Source: an uncultured Candidatus Rokubacteria bacterium (GTDB taxonomy: Bacteria > Methylomirabilota > Methylomirabilia > Rokubacteriales > DASRDR01). From it: 64,000 bases of DNA. The notes under the pieces were generated by a model. The model worked only from the letters and a program-made list of their open reading frames with translations, ran no database searches and was not told the DNA's origin. Each line of letters opens with the position of its first letter. Within the stretch, counting starts at the first letter, position 1. Position numbers and translations under genes: made by a program. This document shows, piece by piece, positions 11,278-24,287 of this stretch. Location: the NCBI GenBank assembly GCA_963805625.1, contig CAWDVE010000010.1, forward strand, positions 1,152,001-1,216,000, read 5' to 3'.

Positions 11278-12516
11278 TCAGAAGGCTCCCTTGTCCAGGC
11301 TGTAGAAGTTCCCATAGATCGACTCACAGGCCTCTCTGAGCCGCCGGCGCTCTGCGTAGCGAGGGCCGAACCGGTCCAGCGCCTGGCTGCTCGTGTCGGC
11401 CCGCGTCCGCCCCTCCAGGACCAGCTCGCTCAGCCACTCCCCCACGAGGAGCGACCCTGCGATCCCGATCGCGTTGCACCCCGCCGCGACCCAGAGCCCG
11501 CGGGCGGTCGGGACGGCGCCGAGCAGATAGTTGCCATCCGGCGTGAAGGTCGGCAGCCCGGCGCAGCCCTTGAGAACCGGGGCGCCCGCGAGCGCCGGAA
11601 ACGCGCGGGTGAGGCCGCCGGCGAGCTCCTCCAGCACCCCCAGATCCTTCTCGGTGTGCTCGATCTCAAACGTGAGCGGCAGCTCCGTCATCGAGAAGGC
11701 CTTGGGATGCGCCTCGAAGCCGCCGAGCATGAGGCCCCCGACCTCAGGCCGGATGTAGACAGAGGCATCCGGTACGCGGACCACCGGCAGGTTCGCCGGC
11801 ACGTCAGCCATCGGCGCCGTTGTCCAGTGTTGGTGCCGCAACGGCACCGTGTCCACCGCCAGCCCCACCGCGTCCGTGACTCGCTCGACCCAGGGCCCCG
11901 CGGCCACGATCACGCGCGGGGACAAGAGCACGCCCGCCGGCGTGTCCACGCCGCGCACCACACCCCCCCGATCCAGCTGGATCGCGGTCACCGGCCGGTC
12001 CGTCTCGAAGATCACCCCGAGGCGCCGGGCAGCGCGCGCGATCGTCATAGCCAGCGTGTAGGGCTCGACGTACCCGTCCCCGGGAATCCACGCCGCTGCC
12101 TTGACGCCGGCGGTGTCGAGGAAGGGCACGCGGGCGCTCGCCCATTTGGGCGTCAGCAGCTCGACCTCGAGACCCCACGCCCGCGCGTTGGCGACGTGCT
12201 CCTCGAGCTCCCGGACTCGCCCGTCCGTCAGCGCGAGCTTGAGGCTCCCCACCTGCCGGAACCCACTCTCCTCGCCGTGCTCAGCCGCCCAGTGCTCGAG
12301 ACGATCGACGACATGGCGGATGGACCGGACCATGAGCTCGCTCGAGCGGAGCTGGCCGACGAGCCCCGCCGCCTGCGGGGTGTTCCCGCACGCGAGCTCG
12401 CGCCGCTCCAGGACCACGACGTCGCGTAGACCGGCCCGCGCCAGATGATAGGCGATCGAGCAGCCCCAGATGCCGCCGCCAATCACGACGGCGGCGGCTT
12501 CGCGTGCGGGACTCAT
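11278..12516 (-). CDS. FAD-dependent oxidoreductase (DAO / sarcosine-DMG dehydrogenase N-terminal type) lacking the GcvT domain
   Basis: VIGGGIWG Rossmann motif and TFTPDG; paralogous to the N-terminal half of 33036-35471. Confidence 0.8.
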   Translation of the reverse strand: MSPAREAAAVVIGGGIWGCSIAYHLARAGLRDVVVLERRELACGNTPQAAGLVGQLRSSELMVRSIRHVVDRLEHWAAEHGEESGFRQVGSLKLALTDGRVRELEEHVANARAWGLEVELLTPKWASARVPFLDTAGVKAAAWIPGDGYVEPYTLAMTIARAARRLGVIFETDRPVTAIQLDRGGVVRGVDTPAGVLLSPRVIVAAGPWVERVTDAVGLAVDTVPLRHQHWTTAPMADVPANLPVVRVPDASVYIRPEVGGLMLGGFEAHPKAFSMTELPLTFEIEHTEKDLGVLEELAGGLTRAFPALAGAPVLKGCAGLPTFTPDGNYLLGAVPTARGLWVAAGCNAIGIAGSLLVGEWLSELVLEGRTRADTSSQALDRFGPRYAERRRLREACESIYGNFYSLDKGAF

Positions 12517-12564
12517 GAGACGTCGGGGATGTGCCAGCCAGGCTGGGCGGGCAAGCGGCGAGGA

Positions 12565-13572
12565 CTACGACGCAGCGGCCGACGCCGCCTGCTTCTGCCG
12601 CGCGATCTCGAGGAGCTCGTGGGGCAACCCGAAGCGGACATCCTCCTCCACCACGCGGAACTCTCGCACCGCCGGCGCGCCGCGGGCCCCGAGGTAGTCC
12701 ACCACCTCGCGCACGAGGAACTCCGGCGTCGACGCGCCGGCCGTCACGCCGATGCGGGTACACCCATCGAGCCACTCCGAGCGGATGTCGCGGACGTCGT
12801 TGATGAGCCGCGCGCGCGTGCCTAGCGTCTCGGCGACCTCTCGGAGCCGGTTCGCGTTCGAGCTGTTCGCCGCGCCCAGCACCAGCACCAGGTCCACGTC
12901 GTTCGCAAGCTGCTTGACGGCCGCCTGCCGGTTCTGCGTCGCGTAGCAGATGTCGTCACGCGCCGGCCCAAGAATGGCCGGGAACCGGCGGCGGAGCACC
13001 TCGATGACGGCCTTCGTGTCGTCCACCGACAGCGTCGTCTGCGTCAGGTAGGCAACCTTCGCGGGGTCCTCGACGGTCAGCTGCTCCGCCTCCTCGACCG
13101 AGTCGATGACCACGATGCGCCGGGGCGCCTCTCCGAGGGTCCCGATCACCTCGTCGTGGTCCGCGTGGCCGACGAGCACGATCGTGCGCCCTTCCTTCGC
13201 GTACCGGATGGCCTCCAAGTGGACCTTCGTGACCAGGGGGCACGTCGCGTCGATCACGCGGAGGCGCCGCGTCGTCGCAGACTCCCGCACGGCGGGCGAT
13301 ACCCCGTGGGCGCTGAAGATGACCGTCGCGCCCTCCGGCACCTCGTCGAGCTCCTCCACGAAGACGGCGCCCTTTTCCCGGAGTGCCTCGACCACGTGCC
13401 GGTTGTGGACGATCTCGCGCCGGACGTAGATGGGCACGCCGACGACCTCGAGGGCCTGCTCGACGATCTCGATGGCCCGCTCGACGCCGGCACAGAAGCC
13501 CCGCGGCCCCGCCAGGACGATCTCGGCGAGCGATGTGGGAATCGAGGGCTCCTCGTGGCCCGCTGTTCGCAT
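12565..13572 (-). CDS. ispH: 4-hydroxy-3-methylbut-2-enyl diphosphate reductase
   Basis: [31 protein letters not shown]. Confidence 0.97.
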
Positions 13573-13716
13573 GGACTCTCAGTATAGAGGCCGCGGGCCG
13601 GGGGACGCAAGCAACGCCCGGCGCGTGCTGGCCGTCACCGGAACAGGTAGTTCACTTTCAGGCCGGGCGCGCGCTCGGCTCGCGATGCGACCCGTCACCC
13701 CCCGCGATCGCCGGCG

Positions 13717-14739
13717 TCACGGACGGATCAGGACCTTGAGCGCCTCGCCTCGGCTCATCAGATCGAGGGCCCGCGGCACGTCGCCGAGCCCCATCTCGTG
13801 GGTGACCAGCGGCGTGGGATCGAGCGTGCCGTCAGCGAGCAACGCGACGGCCCGCCGGATCAGCGCGGGGGTGTGGTGGAACACGCCCAGGAGCCGCAGC
13901 TCCTCGTAGTGGACCCGGCGCGTGTCGAGAGGGACGCTCGTGCCGGGAGCGCAGCCGCCGAAGAACACCACGGTGGCACCCTTGCCCGCGACGGCCATCG
14001 CCTGCTGCCACGCCTCGGGCCTCCCGGTCGCCTCGATCACGCAGCGCACGTCGCCGCCGGCCGCCTCGCGCACGGCCGAGACCGCGTCGGGCACCCGCGC
14101 CACGTCCACGCAGGCGGCGAAGCCAAGGCCGCGAGCGCGTTCGAGGCGAACCCCCGTCTTTCCCGCGAGGATCACGCGCGCTCCCCCGGCGCGGGCCAGG
14201 AGGCCGAGGAGGAGGCCGAGCGGCCCGTGGCCCAGGATCACCACGGTCTCCCCCGCCCCCACCTCCGCCGCATCGATGGCCCGCAGACAGCAGGCAACGG
14301 GCTCGGCGAACGCGACGCGCGCCGCCTCGGCGGCCGGCGACACCGTCACCAGGTTCCGGGCCACGAGGCGTGGCGGGAGGGCGATGTACTCGGCGTAGGC
14401 GCCGTTGACGAAGAGGAGGTCGTCGCAGAGGTTCGCCCGGCCGCGGCGGCAGGCCGCACACGACCCGCACGGGGCCGAGTTCGCCGCAACCGCCCGGTCC
14501 CCGAGCCGCACGTGACCCACGCCCGGCCCGACCGCGGTGACCGTGCCGGCAAATTCGTGACCGAAGACCGTCGGCACCCGCGGGATCATGACGGGATGGC
14601 CCCGCCGAAGCGTCTTCACGTCCGTACCGCAGGTCAGCGCCGCCTCGATCCGGAGCACCACCTCGCCCGGGCCTGGCTCCGGCACCGGCGCATCCTCGAA
14701 TCGGAGGTCGCCGGGACCGTAGAAGACCTGCGCCCTCAC
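13717..14739 (-). CDS. Zinc-binding alcohol dehydrogenase (MDR family)
   Basis: CGTD, GHE and CxxCxxC...C motifs; translationally coupled to the upstream ADH. Confidence 0.85.
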   Translation of the reverse strand: MRAQVFYGPGDLRFEDAPVPEPGPGEVVLRIEAALTCGTDVKTLRRGHPVMIPRVPTVFGHEFAGTVTAVGPGVGHVRLGDRAVAANSAPCGSCAACRRGRANLCDDLLFVNGAYAEYIALPPRLVARNLVTVSPAAEAARVAFAEPVACCLRAIDAAEVGAGETVVILGHGPLGLLLGLLARAGGARVILAGKTGVRLERARGLGFAACVDVARVPDAVSAVREAAGGDVRCVIEATGRPEAWQQAMAVAGKGATVVFFGGCAPGTSVPLDTRRVHYEELRLLGVFHHTPALIRRAVALLADGTLDPTPLVTHEMGLGDVPRALDLMSRGEALKVLIRP

Positions 14740-15743
14740 CCGCCCATCTCCACGAAGACCTTGAGCGCCTCATGGCGCTCCATGAGGCCGACCGCGTCGG
14801 CCATGCGCTCGAGGGGGACGCGATGCGAGCAGAGCTCGTCCACCCGGACCGCGCCGTTTCGGATGAGGTCGAAGGCCTCGGCCAGGTCCGCCGGGGACGA
14901 CGAGTAGGTCGCGGTCAGGGTCAGCTCCCGCTTGTAGAACTCGCCGAACGGCACCGGCCCCTCGCCCTCGCCGACGAAGAGGTGAACCGCCCCGCCGTCG
15001 CGCACCCAGCCGAGCGCGGCCCGGACGAGGGCGGGAGCCGCGGCCGCCAGCACGACCACGTCGGCACCCCGGCCCTCGCTCAGATCCGCGATGGCCCTGC
15101 CGGCCCCATCGGGCGCCGCGGCCGCCTCCGCGCCAAGCGACTCCGCCAGCGCCCGGCGGGCAGGAAGCGGATCGACTCCCACGACGCGCGCCTCGCGCCG
15201 GCGGGCGAGCTGGAGGAGGAGGCAGCCCATCGCCCCGAGCCCCGCCACGACGACCGTGTCGCCTGCCTCCACCGCCGCGCGCCGGATCGCCCGGACGCAG
15301 CAGCCGAGAGGCTCGGTGAACGAGGCGACGGCGTCGGACATCTCGGCGGGCACGCGGAAGGTCACGTGGCGCACGTTCTCGGCGGGGACGCGCACGTACT
15401 CGGCGAAGCCACCCGGGTCGAGGTTCGAGGCCTTGAAGGCTCGGCACATCGAAACGCTGCCTCGCCGGCAGTAGTGGCAGGTGGAGCATGGGACGTGGTG
15501 GGCCACGACCACCCGTTCGCCCGGGCGAAACCCTCCGGTGCCCTCGCCCGCCTCGGCCACCTCGCCCACGACCTCGTGCCCGAGGACGGCCGGCCGCGAC
15601 ACTGGCCCGCGAAGCTTGGCCAGGTCCGAGCCGCACAGGCCGCATCCCAGGACCCGCAGCAGGAGCTCGCCGGGGCCAATCCGAGGGACGGGGCGGGTCT
15701 CGACGCGGATCTCGCCGGTACCTGCGTGGACGGCCGCCCTCAT
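14736..15743 (-). CDS. Zinc-binding alcohol dehydrogenase (MDR family)
   Basis: CGSD, GHE, CSTCHYC...C and GLGAMG motifs. Confidence 0.85.
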   Translation of the reverse strand: MRAAVHAGTGEIRVETRPVPRIGPGELLLRVLGCGLCGSDLAKLRGPVSRPAVLGHEVVGEVAEAGEGTGGFRPGERVVVAHHVPCSTCHYCRRGSVSMCRAFKASNLDPGGFAEYVRVPAENVRHVTFRVPAEMSDAVASFTEPLGCCVRAIRRAAVEAGDTVVVAGLGAMGCLLLQLARRREARVVGVDPLPARRALAESLGAEAAAAPDGAGRAIADLSEGRGADVVVLAAAAPALVRAALGWVRDGGAVHLFVGEGEGPVPFGEFYKRELTLTATYSSSPADLAEAFDLIRNGAVRVDELCSHRVPLERMADAVGLMERHEALKVFVEMGG

Positions 15744-16588
15744 GGGGCGAGCTGGCCGTGCAGGTAAGCGCCGAGCGCGAGGGCGATCTTCTTCGGAGTG
15801 GGAACCCGGATGCGACCCTCGAAGACGCGGAACTGGCGCGCCTCGATCTCTCGCAGGAGCGCGCGGTAGATGCCGCCCATGATCTGCGCCGCGATGAGGC
15901 GACGCCGGTCAGCCGGTGGCAGGGCCGCCTTGGCAGCACGGTAGTACGCGTGCGCGCGGTCGGCCTGGAAGCGCATCAGCCCGACGAACGCCGGGGTGTG
16001 CCGCCCGCGGATGAGCTCGTCCTCCGAGTACCCGAACCGGCGGATCTCGTCGAGCGGTAGATAGATGCGGCCACGCTCGGCGTCCGTGCGGAGGTCGCGC
16101 ATGATGTTCGTCAGCTGGAGCGCGACTCCCAGGTTGACCGCGTAGTCCCGGGCCCGGGGGTCCGTGTAGCCGAAGACCTCGATGCAGGCCAGACCGACCG
16201 CCCCCGCCACCCGATAGCAGTACTCGTACAGCTCCTCGAACGAGGCGTAGCGCCGCTTGTCGATGTCCATCTCGACGCCGTCGAGGATCGCCTCGAGATG
16301 CCGGCGCTGGACGGGAAAGGCCCGGACCACCTCGGCGAGATGCTGGGCAATCGGCTGCGTCGGGCGACCGTCATACGCACGACCCAGCTCGAGCCGCCAG
16401 TCCGTCAGGATGCGGCGCTGCGCGCTCGGTGTCGCCGCCCCCTGATCCACGGCGTCGTCTGCCGTTCGGCAGAAGGCGTAGAGCGCGTAGATGGCGTGCC
16501 GCTTCCGTTTGGGCAGGAACAGGAACGAGTAGTAAAAATTCGACCCGCTGCGACGGGTGAGGATGGCGGAGAGGTCAGCCGCGTTCAT
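15740..16588 (-). CDS. hpnD: Presqualene diphosphate synthase HpnD (squalene/phytoene synthase family)
   Basis: SGSNFYYSF, DDAVD, YCYRVAGAVG, QLTNIMRD...RGRIYLP; TATAAT -10 box upstream. Confidence 0.85.
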   Translation of the reverse strand: MNAADLSAILTRRSGSNFYYSFLFLPKRKRHAIYALYAFCRTADDAVDQGAATPSAQRRILTDWRLELGRAYDGRPTQPIAQHLAEVVRAFPVQRRHLEAILDGVEMDIDKRRYASFEELYEYCYRVAGAVGLACIEVFGYTDPRARDYAVNLGVALQLTNIMRDLRTDAERGRIYLPLDEIRRFGYSEDELIRGRHTPAFVGLMRFQADRAHAYYRAAKAALPPADRRRLIAAQIMGGIYRALLREIEARQFRVFEGRIRVPTPKKIALALGAYLHGQLAP

Positions 16589-16633
16589 GACGTGATGTGA
16601 CACCGGCTGCGCGGGCCGGCTGGATGTCCACGA

Positions 16634-17641
16634 TTATACACGGCGTCGGCGCGGAGCATAGTCGTTCGCCCAGAACCAGTCCACCGCATCGCGGAGCGCC
16701 TGGTCCACGGGCGTCTGGGGCAGCCCGAGCTCCCGGATCGCCCTGGATGGGTCGAAGAACATCCGCTTGGCCGCCATTCGTACGGCAGTCCGCGCGACGA
16801 TCGGCTCGCTCCCCGTCAAGCGCGCCACGAGCTCGGCGCTCGCGCCGAGCGCCAGCGCGGCCCGGTGCGGCAAGCGCACCCGGGGCGCCCGCACCCCGGT
16901 GTAGGCCGCAAGCCGCTCGAAGATGGCGCGGAGCCCCAGGTTCCCCTCCGCATGCCCCAGGATGTACCGCTCGCCGACTCGGCCGCGCGCGGCCGCCAGG
17001 AGGTGCCCTCGCGCAACGTCGCGCACGTGCACGACGTTCAGCCCGGTTTCCAGGTAGGCGAGCATCCGACCCTTCAGGTAGTCCACGAGCATCCGCCCCG
17101 TCGGCGTGGGCTTCCAGTCCCACGGGCCCACGGGCGCCGAGGGGTTAACGATGACGACGGGCAATCCGCGAGCGGCGGCCGCCTCCGCCTCGCGCTCCGC
17201 GAGGAACTTCGACCGCTTGTAGTCCCCCACCATGTCCTCGAGCCGGACCGGCGTGTCCTCCGTGCCGGACCCGCCCTCCGGCGGCAAGCCGAGGGTGCCG
17301 ACACTCGACGTGTAGACCACGCGGGCGACGCCGGCCGCGGCCGCGGCAAGGAACAGCGCCCGCGTGCCGCCGACGTTGACGCGGTAGAGCACTGCGGGGT
17401 CTCGCGCCCAGAGGCGATAGTCGGCCGCGACGTGGTAGAGCACCTCCACGCCCGCGAGCGGCACCTCCAGCGAGCGCGGCTCGGCGAGGTCGCCCGTCAC
17501 GATCTCGACCGGAAGGTCGGCCAGGGCGCGCCGGTCGCTCCCCGGCCGGGCCAGGACGCGCACGGAGACCCCCTCCTCGAGCAAGGCCCGCACGACGTGG
17601 CTCCCGACGAAACCGGTCCCGCCGGTGACGAGCGCTCTCAT
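16634..17641 (-). CDS. hpnA: Hopanoid-associated sugar epimerase / NAD-dependent dehydratase HpnA
   Basis: VTGGTGFVG, HVAADYRLW, YKRSK, KPTPTG; hopanoid gene context. Confidence 0.88.
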   Translation of the reverse strand: MRALVTGGTGFVGSHVVRALLEEGVSVRVLARPGSDRRALADLPVEIVTGDLAEPRSLEVPLAGVEVLYHVAADYRLWARDPAVLYRVNVGGTRALFLAAAAAGVARVVYTSSVGTLGLPPEGGSGTEDTPVRLEDMVGDYKRSKFLAEREAEAAAARGLPVVIVNPSAPVGPWDWKPTPTGRMLVDYLKGRMLAYLETGLNVVHVRDVARGHLLAAARGRVGERYILGHAEGNLGLRAIFERLAAYTGVRAPRVRLPHRAALALGASAELVARLTGSEPIVARTAVRMAAKRMFFDPSRAIRELGLPQTPVDQALRDAVDWFWANDYAPRRRRV

Positions 17642-17763
17642 CGTGCCACGAGCGCCGGCCGGCCTCTCGGGCCAAGGCCGCGCAGGCATCCGTCAGCCGG
17701 GCACCGCGGTCGAGACGGGATGCGACGCGGATCGACCACGGCCCTAGACAGAATGAAACGGCC

Positions 17764-17865
17764 GCCCGATTGGTCAGCCGCGGCAAGCGGCCTCAGGTCG
17801 CGGTCACCGCCGTCGCGCGCGCACTGTGCGGCTTCGTCTGGGCCGTGACAACCCAGGCGGCATAG
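17764..17865 (+). pseudogene. C-terminal 33 codons of an IS110-family recombinase
   Basis: Reads ARLVSRGKRPQVAVTAVARALCGFVWAVTTQAA*, matching the GK..QV..TA.AREL.GF.WA terminus of IS110 transposases. Confidence 0.85.
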
Positions 17866-17896
17866 TGGACCGACAGCTTTCGTGCTGACGATCCGC

Positions 17897-18089
17897 GAAG
17901 CGTGGACGAGCGGGGCCACGAAAGGAGAGCCCTCGGCCCTTCTATGCGGCAGGGCGTCTTCGGACCCCGGATCCGCATTCCTAGAGCGAGGCAGCTCCCG
18001 ACGGCTCACTGTCATGCGGCCCTGCCCTCGGGCAATCCGCGAATCTCAGAGTGACTCGTCGTCGCTGCGTATCCGCTCGTCCGCGCTTC
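17897..18089 (+). ncRNA. Putative bridge RNA / seekRNA of the mini-IS1111 element
   Basis: 17-bp closing stem 17897-913 with 18073-089 (one G-U); segments CCCTTCTA and CCTAGA match the reconstituted target, CTGTC and ATCTCAGA match the circle junction. Confidence 0.75.
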
Positions 18090-18156
18090 CGGCTCCCACG
18101 AGGTCGACCACCCCCTTCGACCGGACCCCCGGCTACCCTTGACGGACCGTTTCATC

Positions 18157-19344
18157 TCAGAAGGGGTAGTCGAGGCCCACGTAGATCGCCGGCCCCTCCC
18201 GGCTGTACGCGAACTCGATGTGGCCGACGACGCTCGGCGGAGCCAGCCCGCGAAACCCGACACCGGGAGTGATCTCGAAGGGGGTGTCGGCAAACTGCTC
18301 GAGCGAGTTGAACACCTTGCCGACGTCGATGAAGGGCGCGACCTGCAATTCTGCGTTGACGCCGAAGATGCGGGCGCGGAACACGCTGGTGCGCACCTCG
18401 ACATTGAAGAGCAACCTGGCGTCCCCGTAGAAGCGATTCTCGCCGAAGCCGCGCAGCGTGTCGACCCCGCCCAGCGTGGGCAGCACCTGGAAGGGGGTGT
18501 TCGACTCACCCGAGATGCCCTCGAAGAGTCCCCGCAGGACCAGCACAACCCGCCGGTCGAGGAAGGGCTTCAGGTACCTGCCTTCGCCACCGGCCTTGAT
18601 GTAGTCGGCGTCGCTCCCGAGGAGCTCGGTGGAGGCCTCGGCAAACACGCTGACGTAGAGTCCCTGCGTCGGCGTGGTCAGCGAGTCGCGGTTGTCGTGT
18701 ATGAAGGCAACCCGCTGGGCGTGGATCGTGGCGCCCTGGATCCCCGGGAGGTCCGGGAAGAGGTCACCGGTGTAGGGCAGGCCCGGCACACCCCCTGGGG
18801 CAACCTCGAACCGCTGAAGGGTCTCGCCGAGGGACAGTCGCATGGTCGGAGTCACGTTGACGCCGAAGATGGCGTACCCCCCCGTCGTCTCCAGCGTCAT
18901 GTTGGATTCGTCGATCTTCTCCGATGAGGGGCCGATACCGAAGAAGCGGATCGAGGACACGCGCTCGTGCAGAAACTGGAAGTCGGTGTGGAATCGGCCG
19001 CCGAACACGTCGAGGTTCTTGTACTGGATTTTGAGCTCGCGGTCGATGTTCTCCGAGTAGGAGGCGATGAACTCCAGGCGCTCGAGGGCGCTCGCGTAGA
19101 GGAAGTACCGGAAAGTCCCCGTCACCCCGCGGATCTCGTTCCAGGTTATGGATGGGGCCACGATGGTCCGGATACGCCCCTCCTCGTCCTTGAACATCCA
19201 GACCGGAAGGATGCCGTAGGTCTCCCCCTCGTTCGGATCGGTGTCGAACGCGGGCAAGGGAAAGAAGGAATACGAGGTGTCCGCCGCCGCCGGACGCGGC
19301 AGCGCGAGCAGGCAGCCGACCAGGAGCGCGGTGAGAGACCTCAG
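18157..19344 (-). CDS. BamA/TamA (Omp85)-family outer-membrane beta-barrel without POTRA domains
   Basis: Signal peptide ending AAA-DT, LGG..TLRGF motif and C-terminal YPF; probable CTG start overlapping the upstream TGA. Confidence 0.75.
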   Translation of the reverse strand: MRSLTALLVGCLLALPRPAAADTSYSFFPLPAFDTDPNEGETYGILPVWMFKDEEGRIRTIVAPSITWNEIRGVTGTFRYFLYASALERLEFIASYSENIDRELKIQYKNLDVFGGRFHTDFQFLHERVSSIRFFGIGPSSEKIDESNMTLETTGGYAIFGVNVTPTMRLSLGETLQRFEVAPGGVPGLPYTGDLFPDLPGIQGATIHAQRVAFIHDNRDSLTTPTQGLYVSVFAEASTELLGSDADYIKAGGEGRYLKPFLDRRVVLVLRGLFEGISGESNTPFQVLPTLGGVDTLRGFGENRFYGDARLLFNVEVRTSVFRARIFGVNAELQVAPFIDVGKVFNSLEQFADTPFEITPGVGFRGLAPPSVVGHIEFAYSREGPAIYVGLDYPF

Positions 19345-20063
19345 GGCTCGCCCGGTGTGTCCACGAACGCCCGAATGAACCGGGCGAGGCTCTCGAGCGC
19401 CTGGTGCGATCGACCGCCGAGGCGCCAGACCGCGCCGACCAGAGCCGGACGCCCGAGGAGGCGCGCCACGGCGCGGATGCGCGTGCGGCCATCTGCCCCC
19501 ACCACTCCGAGCAGCTCTCGCGGTACGTCGTCCTCGGGGCCGTCCGCAATGGCCCGGACGGCCAGTGCGGGAAGCCCGGCGCGCCGGGCCCAGGCGAGGA
19601 CGTGGGCGCTTTCCATGTCGACAGCCAGCACGCGCTGCGTCGCCCACCACTCTGCCTTCGCCGCCGGGCTCGTCACGACGTCGTCCACCGTGAGGAGCCG
19701 TCCGACCTGGTAGCGGAGCCGGGCGGCATCGAGGGCGCGTGCGGCCCGGCGTCGGAGACCAGGATCCCCGCCGTCACTGCAGGACTCCGCACCTGGGGCC
19801 GCCACGGGGTCCCCGATGATAACGTCACCCGGCCGGAGACCCGGCCCGCAGCCACCCGCGAGCCCGGTCACGAGTAGCGCGACGGGCTCCCGCGAGGCCG
19901 GGGGGATGTCGAGACGGTCGAGAAGGGTCGCGCGAGGACCCACGATCCGGACGGTCAGTGCCCGCCGGGTGGCCGGCGGCAGCCGCCGGAGCAATCCGCG
20001 GGCCTCCATGACAAGGCCGGCGACGACGAGGACGCGACCCTCGCGCGTGAGCTCGACCCCTGC
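19341..20063 (-). CDS. hpnG: Hopanoid-associated phosphorylase/nucleosidase, HpnG-like (start codon unclear)
   Basis: VTGLAGG...LRPGDVII, AVDMES and VRAIAD nucleoside-phosphorylase motifs; downstream of hpnH. Confidence 0.65.
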   Translation of the reverse strand, partial: AGVELTREGRVLVVAGLVMEARGLLRRLPPATRRALTVRIVGPRATLLDRLDIPPASREPVALLVTGLAGGCGPGLRPGDVIIGDPVAAPGAESCSDGGDPGLRRRAARALDAARLRYQVGRLLTVDDVVTSPAAKAEWWATQRVLAVDMESAHVLAWARRAGLPALAVRAIADGPEDDVPRELLGVVGADGRTRIRAVARLLGRPALVGAVWRLGGRSHQALESLARFIRAFVDTPGEP

Positions 20064-20064
20064 G

Positions 20065-20412
20065 TCACGGTGGCGGTGGGCCCGCCGCCCGTCCGACCTT
20101 CTCCGCCTGCTTCCGGGCAAGCCATGCGGCGTAGGACTTCCCGGCCGCGGTGTCCTTTCCAGTGAAGTGGATCGTGCGCACCTCCGCGTACGGAACGCGG
20201 TAGGGTCCGCCGCCCTCGGCGTCGAACATCTCGAGGTACGGCACGGGAGCGTCCGCATCCCGATTGAACACGTAGCCGTGGAGCTCCGCACCGTCACGCT
20301 TCACGACCGTCGTGTTCCCCCGGTAGTCGAAGGCGAGCTCGACGATGTGGGCGAGAGACATCTCGGCATCCGGCTCGGGCGCCCACCCCTCGAGGGGCTT
20401 CTCGACCTCCAT
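20065..20412 (-). CDS. Hypothetical protein of the hopanoid cluster (~115 aa)
   Basis: ATG overlaps the hpnH stop (TGATG); protein-like composition AFDYRGNTTV..DG..L.GYVFNR...FTGKDTAAGKS. Confidence 0.7.
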   Translation of the reverse strand: MEVEKPLEGWAPEPDAEMSLAHIVELAFDYRGNTTVVKRDGAELHGYVFNRDADAPVPYLEMFDAEGGGPYRVPYAEVRTIHFTGKDTAAGKSYAAWLARKQAEKVGRAAGPPPP

Positions 20413-21434
20413 CACGCGCGCCCGGTCACGGTGGCCACCACCGTGTCCCGGAATCCGCGCCAGCTGGAGAAGGTCTCCTGGACGGCCGTCGCTTCGAACC
20501 CGCAGTGGACCATGCAGTCGCGGCACTTCTCGTTGCCGCTCCGCTTCCCGTAGCGCTCCCACCGCGTGCCGTGGAGCAGATTCTCGAAACTCTGCGCGTA
20601 GCCCTCCTGGAGGAGATAGCACGGGCGCTGCCAGCCGAAGACGTTGAAGGTCGGATTCCCCCAGGGCGTGCACTCGTAGTCTCGCTTCCCCATGAGGAAC
20701 TGAAGGAACAGCGGAGACTGGTTGAACCGCCACCGCCGCTTCGGGCTCGACAGGATGCGACGGAAGAGGTCGTTGGCCCGCTGCTTGCGGAGGAAGTGCT
20801 CCTGATCGGGCGCCTTCGAGTAGCTGTAGCCGGGGGACACCATCATCCCCTCCACGCCGAGGTCCATCATCGCGTCGAAGAACTGCCGCACCCGCTCGGG
20901 ATTCGCGCCGTCGAACAGGGTGGTGTTCGTCGTCACGCGATATCCCCGGCGAAGCGCCTCCCGGATTCCCTCGACGGCCTGGTCGAAGACGCCATCCTTG
21001 CAGACGGCCTCGTCGTGCTCCTCCCGGAGCCCATCCATGTGGATGCTGAAGGAGAGGTACTTCGAGGGCGTGAAGACGCCGGCGTCGAGCTTCTCCTTGA
21101 GCAGGATGGCGTTCGTGCACAGATAGATGTACTTCTTCCGCGCGACCAGCTCCGTCACGAGCCGCCCGATCTCCGGGTACATGAGAGGCTCGCCGCCCGG
21201 AATGGACACGATGGGGGCGCCGCACTCGTCGACGGCCTTGAGACACTGGTCGACGGTGAGGTTCTTCCGGAGGATCTGACCCGGGTACTGGATCTTGCCG
21301 CAGCCCGCACAGGCGAGGTTGCAGCGGAACAGCGGCTCGAGCATGAGGACGAGCGGGTACTGCTTGCGCCCACGAAATCGCTGCGTGAGCACGTAGCTCG
21401 CGACGGTCCACATCTGAGAGATGGGTACGCTCAT
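20412..21434 (-). CDS. hpnH: Adenosyl-hopene transferase HpnH (radical SAM)
   Basis: LMLEPLFRCNLACAGCGKI, CTPWGNPT, PCYLL, CRDCMVHCGFEAT. Confidence 0.95.
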   Translation of the reverse strand: MSVPISQMWTVASYVLTQRFRGRKQYPLVLMLEPLFRCNLACAGCGKIQYPGQILRKNLTVDQCLKAVDECGAPIVSIPGGEPLMYPEIGRLVTELVARKKYIYLCTNAILLKEKLDAGVFTPSKYLSFSIHMDGLREEHDEAVCKDGVFDQAVEGIREALRRGYRVTTNTTLFDGANPERVRQFFDAMMDLGVEGMMVSPGYSYSKAPDQEHFLRKQRANDLFRRILSSPKRRWRFNQSPLFLQFLMGKRDYECTPWGNPTFNVFGWQRPCYLLQEGYAQSFENLLHGTRWERYGKRSGNEKCRDCMVHCGFEATAVQETFSSWRGFRDTVVATVTGRA

Positions 21435-21453
21435 ACGCTCCGCTCGCCGGGTC

Positions 21454-22311
21454 TCATGCGGGCCCGCCGGCGCGCGCCGGTATCCGGCCCGCCTGGTCCC
21501 GCGATCGTAGAGAGCATACTACAACGGCTGCCAGCGGCACGTGGAGGAGAACCCCGACGCCCAGAAGCGCGGGCTCGGCCACCGCCGCCGTGATCGCGAG
21601 GTTGAAGGCCAGCACGAGATAGTAGAGCGCCACGGCCTGGCGTCCGTGCTCCGGCCAGCGCGTCCCCCAGGCGGGCCGCGCGCCGCCAACGCGAGGGCCG
21701 AGGACGGTCCAGCCCCACGCGATCGCCGCCCCGACGAGCACCCAGCCGACAAAGTTCGCGGCCGGCACCCCGAAGTACCAGCCGGGCTCTGGATAGTAGA
21801 AGATCCGGCCGAGGAACCACCGGTCGCCCCGCACCGCCAGCGGATCGATCACGATGTCGAGCCACATCATGAGGAATCCCGCCAGGCCAGCCAGGCGAAG
21901 GCGCGCGCCGGTCCGGGCCTGGGCCGTCTCTCCCCCTACACCGAGGAGCTGCCCGGCCAGTCCGAGACTCGCGTACGCGAGAAACGTGAAGGACACAGGG
22001 TCGAAGAGGGGGACGTTCGAGACGTAGAGCTCCCGCCCCGCGGTCGCCCCGGTGTAGTGGTAGAGCCCGAAGGGGATCCCGGTGCGCGTCGAGCTCCACT
22101 CGGCGGTGAACGCCAGGCCCCCGGCCCAGGCGGTGAACGCCACCGCGCGTCGCCAGCCCCACGCCGCCGCCGCGGCGGCGAGGTAGACGGCGAGGAACCC
22201 GAACACGTACGGGCGCAGGAGGACGCTGCCCCACGCGCGCCCGAGCACTGCCCCGAGCCCTGCAAAGATGAAGAGCTGGTCGCCGTCGCCCATCGGTTCC
22301 GAGCCACCCAT
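21454..22311 (-). CDS. Carotenoid biosynthesis (CruF-like) membrane protein
   Basis: E..STRTGIPFGLYHY, D..IDPLA and YFGVP.ANF.GW motifs. Confidence 0.75.
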   Translation of the reverse strand: MGGSEPMGDGDQLFIFAGLGAVLGRAWGSVLLRPYVFGFLAVYLAAAAAAWGWRRAVAFTAWAGGLAFTAEWSSTRTGIPFGLYHYTGATAGRELYVSNVPLFDPVSFTFLAYASLGLAGQLLGVGGETAQARTGARLRLAGLAGFLMMWLDIVIDPLAVRGDRWFLGRIFYYPEPGWYFGVPAANFVGWVLVGAAIAWGWTVLGPRVGGARPAWGTRWPEHGRQAVALYYLVLAFNLAITAAVAEPALLGVGVLLHVPLAAVVVCSLRSRDQAGRIPARAGGPA

Positions 22312-22356
22312 GCTACACTAAGCCGCAATCGGCGGGACCAGGGACCCCAGCGATCA

Positions 22357-24246
22357 ATGATAGATACGAGCCGAGTCGACGCGGCGCTCCGGCGCTCGCA
22401 GGACCATCTCCTGCGGCTTCAGTCCCCGGCCGGGGACTGGGTCGGGGAGCTGGAGGCCGACTCCACCATCACGTCCGAGTACGTCCTCCTCCGCCATCTC
22501 CTCGGGACCGTGGATCGGGACCTCGAGCAAAAGGCGCTCGCGTACCTCAGGGACCGGCAGGGCACGGACGGCTCGTGGAACCTCTACCAGGCCGGGGCCG
22601 GCGACCTCTCGGCGACCATCAAGGCGTACTTCGCCATGAAGATGGCCCAGGTCTCCCCGGCCGATCCCGCGATGGCTCGCGCCCGGCAGTGGATCCTGGA
22701 GCGGGGCGGGCCGACCCAGGCCAACGTCTTCGCGAAGATCACCCTGGCCCTGTTCGGCCAGTACCCCTGGGGCGGCGTGCCGGCGATGCCGGTCGAGATC
22801 ATGCTGTTGCCCCGGTGGTCCTACTTCAACATCTGGGAGATCTCCTACTGGTCGAGGACGGTCCTCATCCCCCTCCTGATCGTCATGGACCGGCGGCCGG
22901 TGCACCCCGTTCCGCGCGGCTCTGGCATCGACGAGCTATGGGCGCATCACCTCCACCTCGACGACCCGGCGTATGCGCGCCGCGGGCTCGTGTCGTGGAA
23001 GAACATCTTCATCGGCGTCGACGGCTTCCTCAAGACGTGGGAGGCCTTCGGGCCTCGCCCCTGGCGGGCCCGGGCGATCCGTACCGCCCACGACTGGCTG
23101 GTCCCTCGGATGACCGTGCCGGGCGGCCTGGGTGGCATCTATCCCGCCATGGTGAACGGGATCCTGGCGATGCGACTCCTGGGCTATCCGGATGATCACA
23201 GACTGATCACGGGGCAGCTCAAGGAGATCGAGGCGCTCGGCGTCGAGGAGGCGCGTCGGTTTCACGTGCAGCCGTGCGTGTCGCCCGTCTGGGACACCGC
23301 GCTCGCGGTCAACGCCCTGCTGGCGTCGGGGCTGCCGAGTTCGCACCCGGCCCTCCTTCGCGCCGCGGACTGGCTCCTGGACCGCCAAGTGCTCGAGACG
23401 GGGGACTGGCAGGTCAAGCGCCCGGAGCTCCCGCCCGGTGGCTGGGCCTTCCAGTTCGACAACCCCTTCTACCCGGATCTCGACGACACCGCGGTGGTCG
23501 CCATGGGCCTGGCCCAGATCGACCACCCGGACGACGGCCGGCGGCGCCTTGCCATCGACCGCGCCGTGCGGTGGCTCCGGGGCATGCAGGGCAAGGACGG
23601 CGGCTGGGCGTCGTTCGACACGGATCAGACACGGCTGCTCTTCAACAACATCCCGTTCGCCGATCACGGGGCGCTCCTAGACCCGGCCACGGAAGATCTC
23701 ACCGCGCGCTGCATCGAGTGCTTCGGGCGGCTGGGCGTCCCGCGTGACGATCCGGCGATCCAGCGGGGCCTCGCGTTCCTCCGCCGAACCCAGACGCCCG
23801 AGGGCGCGTGGCACGGGCGATGGGGCGTGAACTACCTCTACGGGACGTGGTCGGTCCTCCGGGGACTCGAGGCGATAGGGCTCCGTACCGACGATCCCAT
23901 GGTCGGGCGTGCGATCCGATGGCTCGAGGCTCGCCAGAACTCGGATGGCGGCTGGGGCGAGACCTGTGATTCCTACGCCGACGCCCACCTCAAGGGACGC
24001 GGCGTATCGGGACCGAGCCAGACGGCGTGGGCCCTCCTCGGCCTGATGGCAGCGGGCCAGGCGGCCACCCCGATGGTCGAGCGCGGGATCGAGTTCCTCC
24101 TGCGGAGCCAGCGAGCCGATGGCGGCTGGGACGACCCGCTCTGGAACGGAACGGGTTTTCCTCGGGTCTTCTACCTGCAGTACCACCTCTATGCCCACTA
24201 CTTCCCCCTGTGGGCGCTCGGAGCGTGGCGCCGGCTCACGCGGTAG
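22357..24246 (+). CDS. shc: Squalene-hopene cyclase
   Basis: DLDDTA catalytic motif, QW repeats (Q..DGGWG), GTGFPRVFYL. Confidence 0.97.
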   Translation: MIDTSRVDAALRRSQDHLLRLQSPAGDWVGELEADSTITSEYVLLRHLLGTVDRDLEQKALAYLRDRQGTDGSWNLYQAGAGDLSATIKAYFAMKMAQVSPADPAMARARQWILERGGPTQANVFAKITLALFGQYPWGGVPAMPVEIMLLPRWSYFNIWEISYWSRTVLIPLLIVMDRRPVHPVPRGSGIDELWAHHLHLDDPAYARRGLVSWKNIFIGVDGFLKTWEAFGPRPWRARAIRTAHDWLVPRMTVPGGLGGIYPAMVNGILAMRLLGYPDDHRLITGQLKEIEALGVEEARRFHVQPCVSPVWDTALAVNALLASGLPSSHPALLRAADWLLDRQVLETGDWQVKRPELPPGGWAFQFDNPFYPDLDDTAVVAMGLAQIDHPDDGRRRLAIDRAVRWLRGMQGKDGGWASFDTDQTRLLFNNIPFADHGALLDPATEDLTARCIECFGRLGVPRDDPAIQRGLAFLRRTQTPEGAWHGRWGVNYLYGTWSVLRGLEAIGLRTDDPMVGRAIRWLEARQNSDGGWGETCDSYADAHLKGRGVSGPSQTAWALLGLMAAGQAATPMVERGIEFLLRSQRADGGWDDPLWNGTGFPRVFYLQYHLYAHYFPLWALGAWRRLTR

Positions 24247-24287
24247 AGCACGGCGAGAGCCAGCCACAGACCCCGTTCACCCCCCGA

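What the first reader, a model, noticed from the sequence alone, without database searches (positions are those of the whole stretch)
17746..18160. Miniature non-autonomous IS1111 element carrying an intact bridge/seek RNA matched to its own site
Seen: AG cores flank ~411 bp containing sub-terminal IRs, only the last 33 codons of an IS110 recombinase and a ~290-nt structured 3' region. Empty target = GGCCCT-AG-AAGGGG; circle junction = CATCTC-AG-ACAGAAT. The RNA region contains CCCTTCTA (17937-44, reverse complement of the target right arm plus core), CCTAGA (17980-85, target left arm plus core), CTGTC (18009-13, reverse complement of the donor right arm) and ATCTCAGA (18043-50, donor left arm plus core). 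Circularisation would create TTGACG-N17-CAGAAT. Established: IS110/IS1111 elements use such bispecific RNAs and junction promoters. Inference: a MITE-like guide-carrying element mobilisable in trans, with a directly readable guide code.
Basis: partly seen in the sequence, partly recalled or inferred. Interest (0 to 1): 0.85.

Follow-up and report, generated by a model that had tools for sequence, protein, structure and literature searches.

The report
Gutted transposon keeping its guide RNA
This is a single 411-base remnant of an RNA-guided jumping gene that has lost nearly all of its enzyme gene but kept both ends and a predicted guide RNA matching its own insertion site; it is likely a stranded deletion relic rather than a spreading mini-element.

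Summary
17746-18160 is an IS1111-type IS110 element: AG cores, an 11-bp sub-terminal inverted repeat (one mismatch), 33 C-terminal recombinase codons and a right-end bridge/seek RNA. Full-length parents (~1.49 kb) with these ends exist; this copy is parent bases 1-19 fused over a 2-bp microhomology to the last ~400. The guide reading is right: the right-target guide matches the own flank at 154 of 204 positions in 34 elements (shuffled mean 60), and donor guides change with the ends. The site is empty in 14 relatives. Mobility as a mini is not shown: one copy, no cognate recombinase in the genome, perfect targets left empty, no second flank in 8 sequencing runs, a substitution in an invariant recombinase motif, and relatives hold single-copy deletions with other breakpoints. 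Best reading: in-place deletion relic whose cis sites would likely still work if a recombinase arrived. One hint of trans use: a second mini (G012) fits a co-resident element's guide, not its own. The scan holds no look-alike of this DNA; one unchecked note reports gene-less IS110 miniatures in another genome.

The parts
17714..17747 (+). Left flank: 3' remnant of a ~126-bp intergenic repeat; its last bases (CCT) form the left target half
   Evidence: Matches positions 93-126 of the full repeat at the same site in G014; full copy at G000:C16:537846-537723, 90%
17746..17747 (+). Left AG core
   Evidence: Sequence; one AG only at the empty site in relatives
17748..17752 (+). Left terminal extension (7 bp with the core); right-donor half after predicted circularisation
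   Evidence: Same five bases in full-length L089; same geometry in L084, L086-L088, L094, L095
17749..17754 (+). Predicted -10 hexamer of the circle-junction promoter
   Evidence: 17-bp spacing to TTGAC(A/G) in 7 of 7 elements of this donor type with both ends; not kept in the 16 others; activity untested
17753..17763 (+). Left sub-terminal inverted repeat, 11 bp
   Evidence: Identical in the parents
17763..17764 (+). Deletion junction, CG microhomology; about 1,070 bp of the parent missing (rest of left end, start codon, both catalytic domains)
   Evidence: Query 1-19 aligns to parent 1-19 and query 18 onward to parent 1087 onward in L095
17764..17865 (+). Last 33 codons and stop of an IS110 recombinase, with AREL changed to ARAL
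   Evidence: 31 of 33 identical to P0001; parent protein hits PF01548, PF02371, NF033542
17897..18089 (+). Predicted bridge/seek RNA: closing stem, target-binding loop, donor-binding loop
   Evidence: 17-bp closing stem; keeps 61 of 65 consensus pairs, 33 pairs show double-sided changes in 36 sequences; an RNA-library contig of a 97% relative spans 17876-18068 (weak hint)
17936..17944 (+). Right-target guide plus core (complement of the top strand)
   Evidence: 5 of 6 match to own right flank; family 154 of 204
17980..17985 (+). Left-target guide plus core
   Evidence: 3 bases match own left flank; family 73 of 87 at the last three positions, shuffled mean 48
18009..18013 (+). Right-donor guide
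   Evidence: 5 of 5 match to core G plus 17748-51; family 29, 27, 29, 23, 3 of 29 by position
18043..18050 (+). Left-donor guide plus core
   Evidence: Equals 18154-60; 39 of 43 elements have guide identical to their last five bases, across four variants
18139..18144 (+). Predicted -35 hexamer of the circle-junction promoter
   Evidence: TTGAC conserved at this place in the family; activity untested
18145..18155 (+). Right sub-terminal inverted repeat (one mismatch to the left arm, at 18146)
   Evidence: Parents carry G at this place
18156..18160 (+). 3-bp right extension and right AG core; on the minus strand 18157-59 is the TGA stop of the Omp85-family gene
18161..18166 (+). Right target half = last codons of the Omp85-family gene (18157-19650, minus strand)

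Best explanation
This is an IS1111-type insertion sequence that likely inserted here full-length (~1.49 kb) under its own predicted bridge RNA and then likely lost about 1,070 bp in place by a microhomology deletion, leaving both ends, 33 dead codons and the whole RNA region. Shown by sequence and comparison: element boundaries, parent, empty site, deletion junction, guide-to-flank covariation, single copy, no cognate recombinase. Inferred from IS1111 work: the RNA folds into target- and donor-binding loops, the recombinase-RNA complex joins the AG cores into a circle, the circle junction makes the promoter. The relic is likely silent and immobile now; its donor ends still match its donor guides, so it would probably be a substrate if a matching recombinase entered the cell, though only 19 bp of the left end remain.
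For: One copy in G000 by blastn with the element and with a parent; 1 of 251 class genomes for the mini pattern. No cognate recombinase: best full-length IS110 protein in G000 is 26.8% identical to the L095 parent (32% to P0001), while class members of the wider group reach 50-57%. Three intact 10-bp and seven 9-bp perfect targets stay empty in G000. No other flank or joint in 8 of 21 listed runs laid; X1 and L079 show the same right flank. Flank fits own guide 5 of 6, as for full-length elements inserted in cis. Drift: AREL to ARAL and M to T against P0001, one change at 70 near-invariant RNA columns (17977, where a 97% relative keeps the family base), one IR mismatch. Decay is the family's habit: 4 of 23 elements with both ends are internally deleted, at 413, 436, 871 and 1123 bp, each with other breakpoints, one more keeps the ends but no RNA (L103), and G000 has two further fragments (C10:2104935, C19:689251). 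The neighbouring repeat is also cut by about 80 bp, 50 bp from the junction.
Against: No full-length allele at this site was found, so in-place deletion is inferred, not seen. The breakpoint falls one base inside the left IR's inner edge and the RNA keeps 61 of 65 pairs, as many as any full-length element (range 39-61): what a selected mini would also look like. A second mini of similar size exists (L036) and its right flank fits a co-resident element's guide (4 of 6) and not its own (1 of 6). A mini carried in by its own RNA plus a since-lost recombinase would leave the same single locus. G000 has 28 contigs; copies in gaps would be missed. Engineered IS1111 mini-elements do move in trans (PMC11187229, passages).
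Confidence: 0.7

Rival explanations
1. The deletion happened elsewhere and the 413-bp unit was excised, circularised and inserted here as a non-autonomous mini-element, using its own bridge RNA and a recombinase supplied in trans by a parent that is now gone.
For: All cis sites kept and self-consistent: donor guides match own ends 5 of 5 and 7 of 7, junction-promoter spacing kept; the deletion spares the left IR to the base; independent mini L036 (436 bp) sits at a site that fits the guide of full-size G012:C66 at the first 4 of 6 bases, where 26 of 6429 CTAG sites of G000 would and none of 29 other guides does; precedent MITEPpu9 and engineered mini-IS.
Against: Single copy, no second flank, empty perfect targets, no cognate recombinase; L036 is also single-copy and its fit is one post-hoc case that a full-length ancestor inserted in trans, or a recombination between two elements, also explains; no further mini with RNA in 15 genomes searched copy by copy.
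Confidence: 0.22
2. The host keeps the remnant for a function of its own, such as an antisense structured RNA or a transcription brake between the Omp85-family gene and the downstream epimerase gene, which run on the opposite strand.
For: RNA fold intact; element sits between two co-oriented genes that lie 6-22 bp apart in several relatives; an RNA-library contig of a 97% relative covers the RNA region.
Against: Absent from the same site in 14 of 14 relatives where the site could be read; drift at conserved positions; no promoter match evident upstream in the integrated state (by eye); the RNA contig is from a relative of unknown length and may be DNA.
Confidence: 0.05
3. The internal deletion is an assembly error and the cell holds a full-length element here.
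For: No contig in the 8 runs laid bridges 17764; L079 starts at 17835.
Against: No trace of the missing 1,070 bp anywhere in G000; the locus lies inside a 2.2-Mb contig; the AREL-to-ARAL change is also in the X2 contig with no other letter (that study may be the window's source); clean microhomology junction.
Confidence: 0.03

Closest known systems
IS1111-group IS110 elements with right-end seek/bridge RNA (ISEc11, ISPa11, ISKpn4; PMC11187229, PMC11208160)
   Same: Sub-terminal IR of 11 bp, 7-bp left and 3-bp right extensions, long non-coding region after the recombinase gene, top-strand guide before bottom-strand guide, predicted junction promoter (against 36, 41).
   Different: No recombinase; different sequence family: the nearest named hit of the parent protein is an ISSfr2-family transposase at 46.8%, solved IS621 and ISCro4 match only in the C-terminal domain. 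The left-target guide is only 2-3 bases plus core.
MITEPpu9 / ssr9 of Pseudomonas putida ISPpu9 (PMC12288879; abstract, Discussion part 1 and passages read)
   Same: Small gene-less unit bounded by IS110-type ends and AG cores, carrying a small RNA, dependent on a recombinase in trans; that paper also reports a copy beside a truncated tnp end.
   Different: MITEPpu9 has eight copies, detected circles and a co-resident parent; its Ssr9 RNA is not described there as the bridge RNA and is dispensable. Here the RNA is the guide itself, but there is one copy and no parent in the genome.
Engineered ISEc11 mini-IS (PMC11187229, passages)
   Same: Ends alone move when transposase and RNA are given in trans.
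   Different: Those constructs kept 50 bp of left end and 46 bp of right end; this relic keeps 19 bp on the left.
Partial IS110 circles and ~800-bp compact IS110s (bioRxiv 10.64898/2026.08.14.744561, passages)
   Same: Natural sub-length IS110 forms; partial fragments reported at independent sites.
   Different: There, elements with truncated recombinases showed no activity in their assay and the small active ones keep an intact recombinase.

Membership tests
IS1111 group (IS110 family) | DEDD + Tnp20 recombinase | tested here: met
   Met for the parent (PF01548, PF02371, NF033542 268 bits); the element itself holds only the last 33 codons
IS1111 group (IS110 family) | Sub-terminal inverted repeats of 11-13 bp | tested here: met
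   17753-63 and 18145-55, 10 of 11; definition from PMC11187229
IS1111 group (IS110 family) | 7-bp left and 3-bp right terminal extensions | tested here: met
   17746-52 and 18156-58; boundaries fixed by empty sites and parents
IS1111 group (IS110 family) | Long non-coding region downstream of the recombinase gene with guides to target and donor, top-strand complement first | tested here: met
   Covariation; structure
IS1111 group (IS110 family) | Recombinase falls in the IS1111 clade by phylogeny | not tested
   No tree against ISfinder references was built; only the 46.8% ISSfr2-family hit
IS1111 group (IS110 family) | Circular intermediate with junction promoter | not testable with these tools
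   Geometry kept in 7 of 7 of this donor type; no end-to-end joint in contigs of 8 runs, which cannot show absence
MITE / non-autonomous mobile element | Short, non-coding, both ends of a parent IS | tested here: met
MITE / non-autonomous mobile element | Several near-identical copies at unrelated sites | tested here: not met
   One copy in G000; none in 250 other class genomes, viral contigs or as other flanks in 8 runs
MITE / non-autonomous mobile element | Cognate transposase available in the genome | tested here: not met
   best full-length IS110 protein 27-32% identical
   The parent is an IS110 element

The most novel reading that the evidence does not exclude
IS1111 elements of this family spawn recombinase-less, self-addressed minis of 410-440 bp that carry their own bridge RNA and junction promoter, hitch-hike on passing recombinases, and can be sent either by their own guide (this copy) or by a co-resident element's guide (L036): natural RNA-only parasites of bridge recombination.
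Probability: 0.2. Interest if true: 0.6.

Novelty: new member of a known kind. Interest (0 to 1): 0.3.

Why it matters
As a relic it is ordinary IS decay. Its use is practical: it exposes a readable guide code for an IS1111-type family far from the tested ones (parent 47% to the nearest named transposase), with 25 natural right-target guides, four donor variants and a very short left-target guide, which makes a new bridge recombinase directly testable, including how little left end (19 bp) is enough. If the mini did move, it would be a natural case of a guide-carrying, enzyme-less IS110 parasite, which my three literature searches aimed at it did not return.

Tried and rejected
Rfam scan: 0 matches at E<=1, uninformative. 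Exact right-end pattern in metagenomes: 0 (parents differ at 18146). Plasmid blastn of the element: only short hits to the coding remnant. Viral contigs: no parent protein, no junction, no clade motif. Read laying: no contig across 17764 or the left core, no joints; lack of cover is no evidence; one search's tables were cut (21 pieces, 35 loose ends not shown). Idea that the left-flank repeat is the target: rejected, because the longer guide matches the Omp85 gene's last codons and the repeat supplies only three bases; the repeat has 5 hits in G000. Idea that C12 or C17 IS110 proteins of G000 are the helper: rejected on 27-32% identity or no hit. One search used wrong coordinates (flank instead of element) and was redone; the C66 print failed and was redone. 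Class-wide DNA searches scored only 2 candidates per genome, so they do not count copies; some searches were run for that on 15 genomes. Stop-codon context of insertion sites was listed but not tested against a background. Some consensus pairs join the core-binding bases of opposite guides and are probably not real RNA pairs.

Full report
Observation. Two AG dinucleotides (17746-47, 18159-60) enclose 411 bases. An inverted repeat of 11 bp with one mismatch lies 7 bases from the left limit (counting the core) and 3 bases from the right core. One reading frame stays open for 33 codons (17764-17862) that resemble a recombinase C-terminus. The 3' region folds better than 199 of 200 shuffles (z = -2.85) and has a 17-bp closing stem, 17897-17913 with 18073-18089. 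Rfam has no match.

Boundaries and empty site. Of 18 loci from relatives (L002-L019) the orthologous site could be read in 14; all 14 lack the element. G001, G003 and G005 have the same three bases before a single AG and the same right flank; G014, which shares the upstream repeat with this genome, differs at one of those bases. The target is the stop codon of an Omp85-family gene on the minus strand; the element's right end supplies a TGA, so the protein is untouched.

Parent. A pattern on the donor loop gave 5 loci in genome contigs and 15 in metagenomes. Among them are full-length elements with the same ends, for example L086, L088, L089 and L095 (1485-1513 bp), whose protein is an IS110 RNA-guided transposase (PF01548, PF02371; NF033542 268 bits, cut-off 140). 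One locus (L077) is a chance match and L079 is this same site. Against L095 the element is parent 1-19 joined to parent 1087-1491, 80% identical over the main block, with CG shared at the junction: about 1,070 bp are gone, starting one base past the left inverted repeat. The closest protein found, P0001, matches 31 of the 33 codons; the differences are AREL to ARAL and M to T. AREL is kept in every parent translation I read.

Guides. I parsed 55 loci. For the right-target guide 34 were counted; 9 lacked a right flank, 4 had no parseable guide, and 8 were dropped before counting: three as repeats of a site already held (L058, L079, L092), two without the guide (L078, L081), and three with a disturbed right junction (L038, L042, L075). 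Those three do not fit their guides (about 1 of 6 each, by eye). In the 34, guide and own flank agree at 154 of 204 positions; 20,000 shuffles gave a mean of 60 and a maximum of 91; with one row per distinct guide it is 112 of 150 against 44. Kin are not independent, so these are not p-values, but the gap is large. This element scores 5 of 6. The left-target guide matches over only 2-3 bases (29, 26, 18 of 29, then 9 and 7; 73 of 87 against 48 shuffled). The left-donor guide equals the last five bases of the element in 39 of 43 cases across four variants; the right-donor guide follows the left end (29, 27, 29, 23, 3 of 29); here both match fully. The order is top-strand complement first, which PMC11187229 gives as the IS1111 arrangement (abstract and passages). 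One counted row, L070, comes from G113, marked unpublished; no conclusion depends on it. In an alignment of 36 RNA regions the consensus has 65 pairs, 88% of cells paired against 35-42% for slid partners, 33 pairs with double-sided changes; this copy keeps 61 (range 39-61). The -35/-10 spacing of 17 at the predicted circle junction holds in 7 of 7 elements of this donor type with both ends and in none of the 16 others; promoter activity is untested.

Mechanism. From IS1111 work (PMC11187229 passages; PMC11208160 section 12 and passages; PMC13626964 abstract only): the recombinase binds the RNA, the donor loop reads the two ends across the AG core, the target loop reads the site, a circle forms and its junction makes a promoter. 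For this locus the inference is that a full-length ancestor used this RNA to insert here and was then gutted in place. The RNA is intact because the deletion missed it and little time has passed; three kinds of small drift (coding motif, one of 70 near-invariant RNA columns, one IR base) fit a relic. A 97% relative in an RNA library keeps the family base at the drifted RNA column and has the same right-target guide.

Mobility as a mini: not shown. One copy in G000. The mini pattern rings in 1 of 251 class genomes, this one. No cognate recombinase: IS110 domain searches give seven and two places, the best full-length one 26.8% identical to the L095 protein and 32% to P0001. Three 10-base and seven 9-base perfect targets remain empty in G000. 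In 8 of 21 listed runs no contig shows another flank or a joint, X1 shows the same right flank, and none bridges the deletion; contigs show presence, not absence. Internal deletion is common in the family: 4 of 23 elements with both ends, all with different breakpoints, plus L103, which kept ends but no RNA, and many one-ended fragments among 20 further regions. The adjacent repeat also lost about 80 bp.

Evidence the other way. The breakpoint spares every known cis site. A second mini, L036 in G012 (436 bp, other subfamily, other breakpoint, single copy), is one of the two worst fits to its own guide (1 of 6; the other, L062, fits after a one-base shift), yet matches the first four bases of the guide of a full-size element in the same genome; 26 of 6429 CTAG sites in G000 would do so, and none of 29 other guides does (background from G000, not G012; one post-hoc case). 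It suggests that guides of this family can act in trans, but not that L036 was already small when it moved. No further RNA-bearing mini turned up in 15 genomes searched copy by copy.

Comparison. By architecture it meets the IS1111 definition (IR length, 7/3 extensions, downstream RNA, guide order); clade membership by tree was not tested, and the nearest named relative of the parent is ISSfr2-like at 46.8%. It works like a potential MITE but fails two membership tests, copy number and helper. The natural precedent is MITEPpu9 (PMC12288879; abstract, Discussion part 1, passages), multi-copy and circle-forming, whose RNA is not given as the bridge RNA. A 2026 preprint (passages) found no activity for elements with truncated recombinases, but reintegration of partial fragments; its supplements are closed and may list minis like this one. 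Four searches returned no paper on a natural recombinase-less IS1111 mini carrying its own bridge RNA; the library lacks most subscription papers and ISfinder was not searchable. The scan's notes hold no look-alike of this DNA and nothing fitting in this genome; two notes on other genomes report a ~90-base multi-copy IS110 miniature (unchecked) and a look-alike that proved to be IS607-derived, a reading excluded here by the IS110 parent.

Verdict. A real, cleanly readable IS1111-type deletion derivative with a valid guide code; most likely a stranded relic (0.70), possibly a mobilised mini (0.22). New member of a known kind; interest 0.3.

Noticed in passing
L036 (G012:C134:22487-22925, minus) and L101 (G012:C66:13163-14667, minus): Second, independent 436-bp mini of a sister subfamily (73 bp of left end, last ~10 codons, whole RNA). 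Its right flank fits its own guide 1 of 6 but the guide of the co-resident, now frameshifted full-size element 4 of 6: a possible trans-guided insertion.
   Followed up: partly
window 17702-17747; G000:C16:537846-537723, C16:122777-122671, C19:638592-638469: A ~126-bp intergenic repeat ending in CTAG, inserted at this stop codon in G013 and G014 too; the copy here lacks about 80 internal bases. L044 is inserted next to a related repeat.
   Followed up: partly
window 18157-18159: The element inserts in the stop codon of the Omp85-family gene and its right end supplies a new TGA, so the protein is unchanged. The family's right end reads TGA on the minus strand in nearly all rows, so insertions at CTAG would keep a stop on both strands; not tested against a background.
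   Followed up: partly
X15 contig on window 17876-18068: A 196-base contig from an RNA library, 5 differences, same right-target guide, ends near the predicted RNA limits; weak hint of expression in a close relative.
   Followed up: no
L038 (G013:C25), right junction: What looks like the 3' end of a group II intron (recognised from recall, no tool test) sits in the element's right core.
   Followed up: no
L032 (G004:C5) and L042 (G018:C19): L032's right-target guide is split by a ~1.3-kb insertion of another element; L042 has a second, different IS110 directly after its right end.
   Followed up: no
L030-L076 subfamily ends: In the sister subfamily the -35 to core distance is 18-20 instead of 16, so no 17-bp junction promoter forms at the same place.
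   Followed up: no
window 12000-24250: The element sits in a gene cluster that reads like hopanoid biosynthesis (squalene-hopene cyclase-like, radical SAM, phytoene synthase-like, IspH-like ORFs; names from recall of the translations, only the epimerase and Omp85 genes were scanned).
   Followed up: no
L079: A 1,593-base contig filed with another organism is the same locus as window 17835 onward with 4 mismatches; possibly mis-binned.
   Followed up: no
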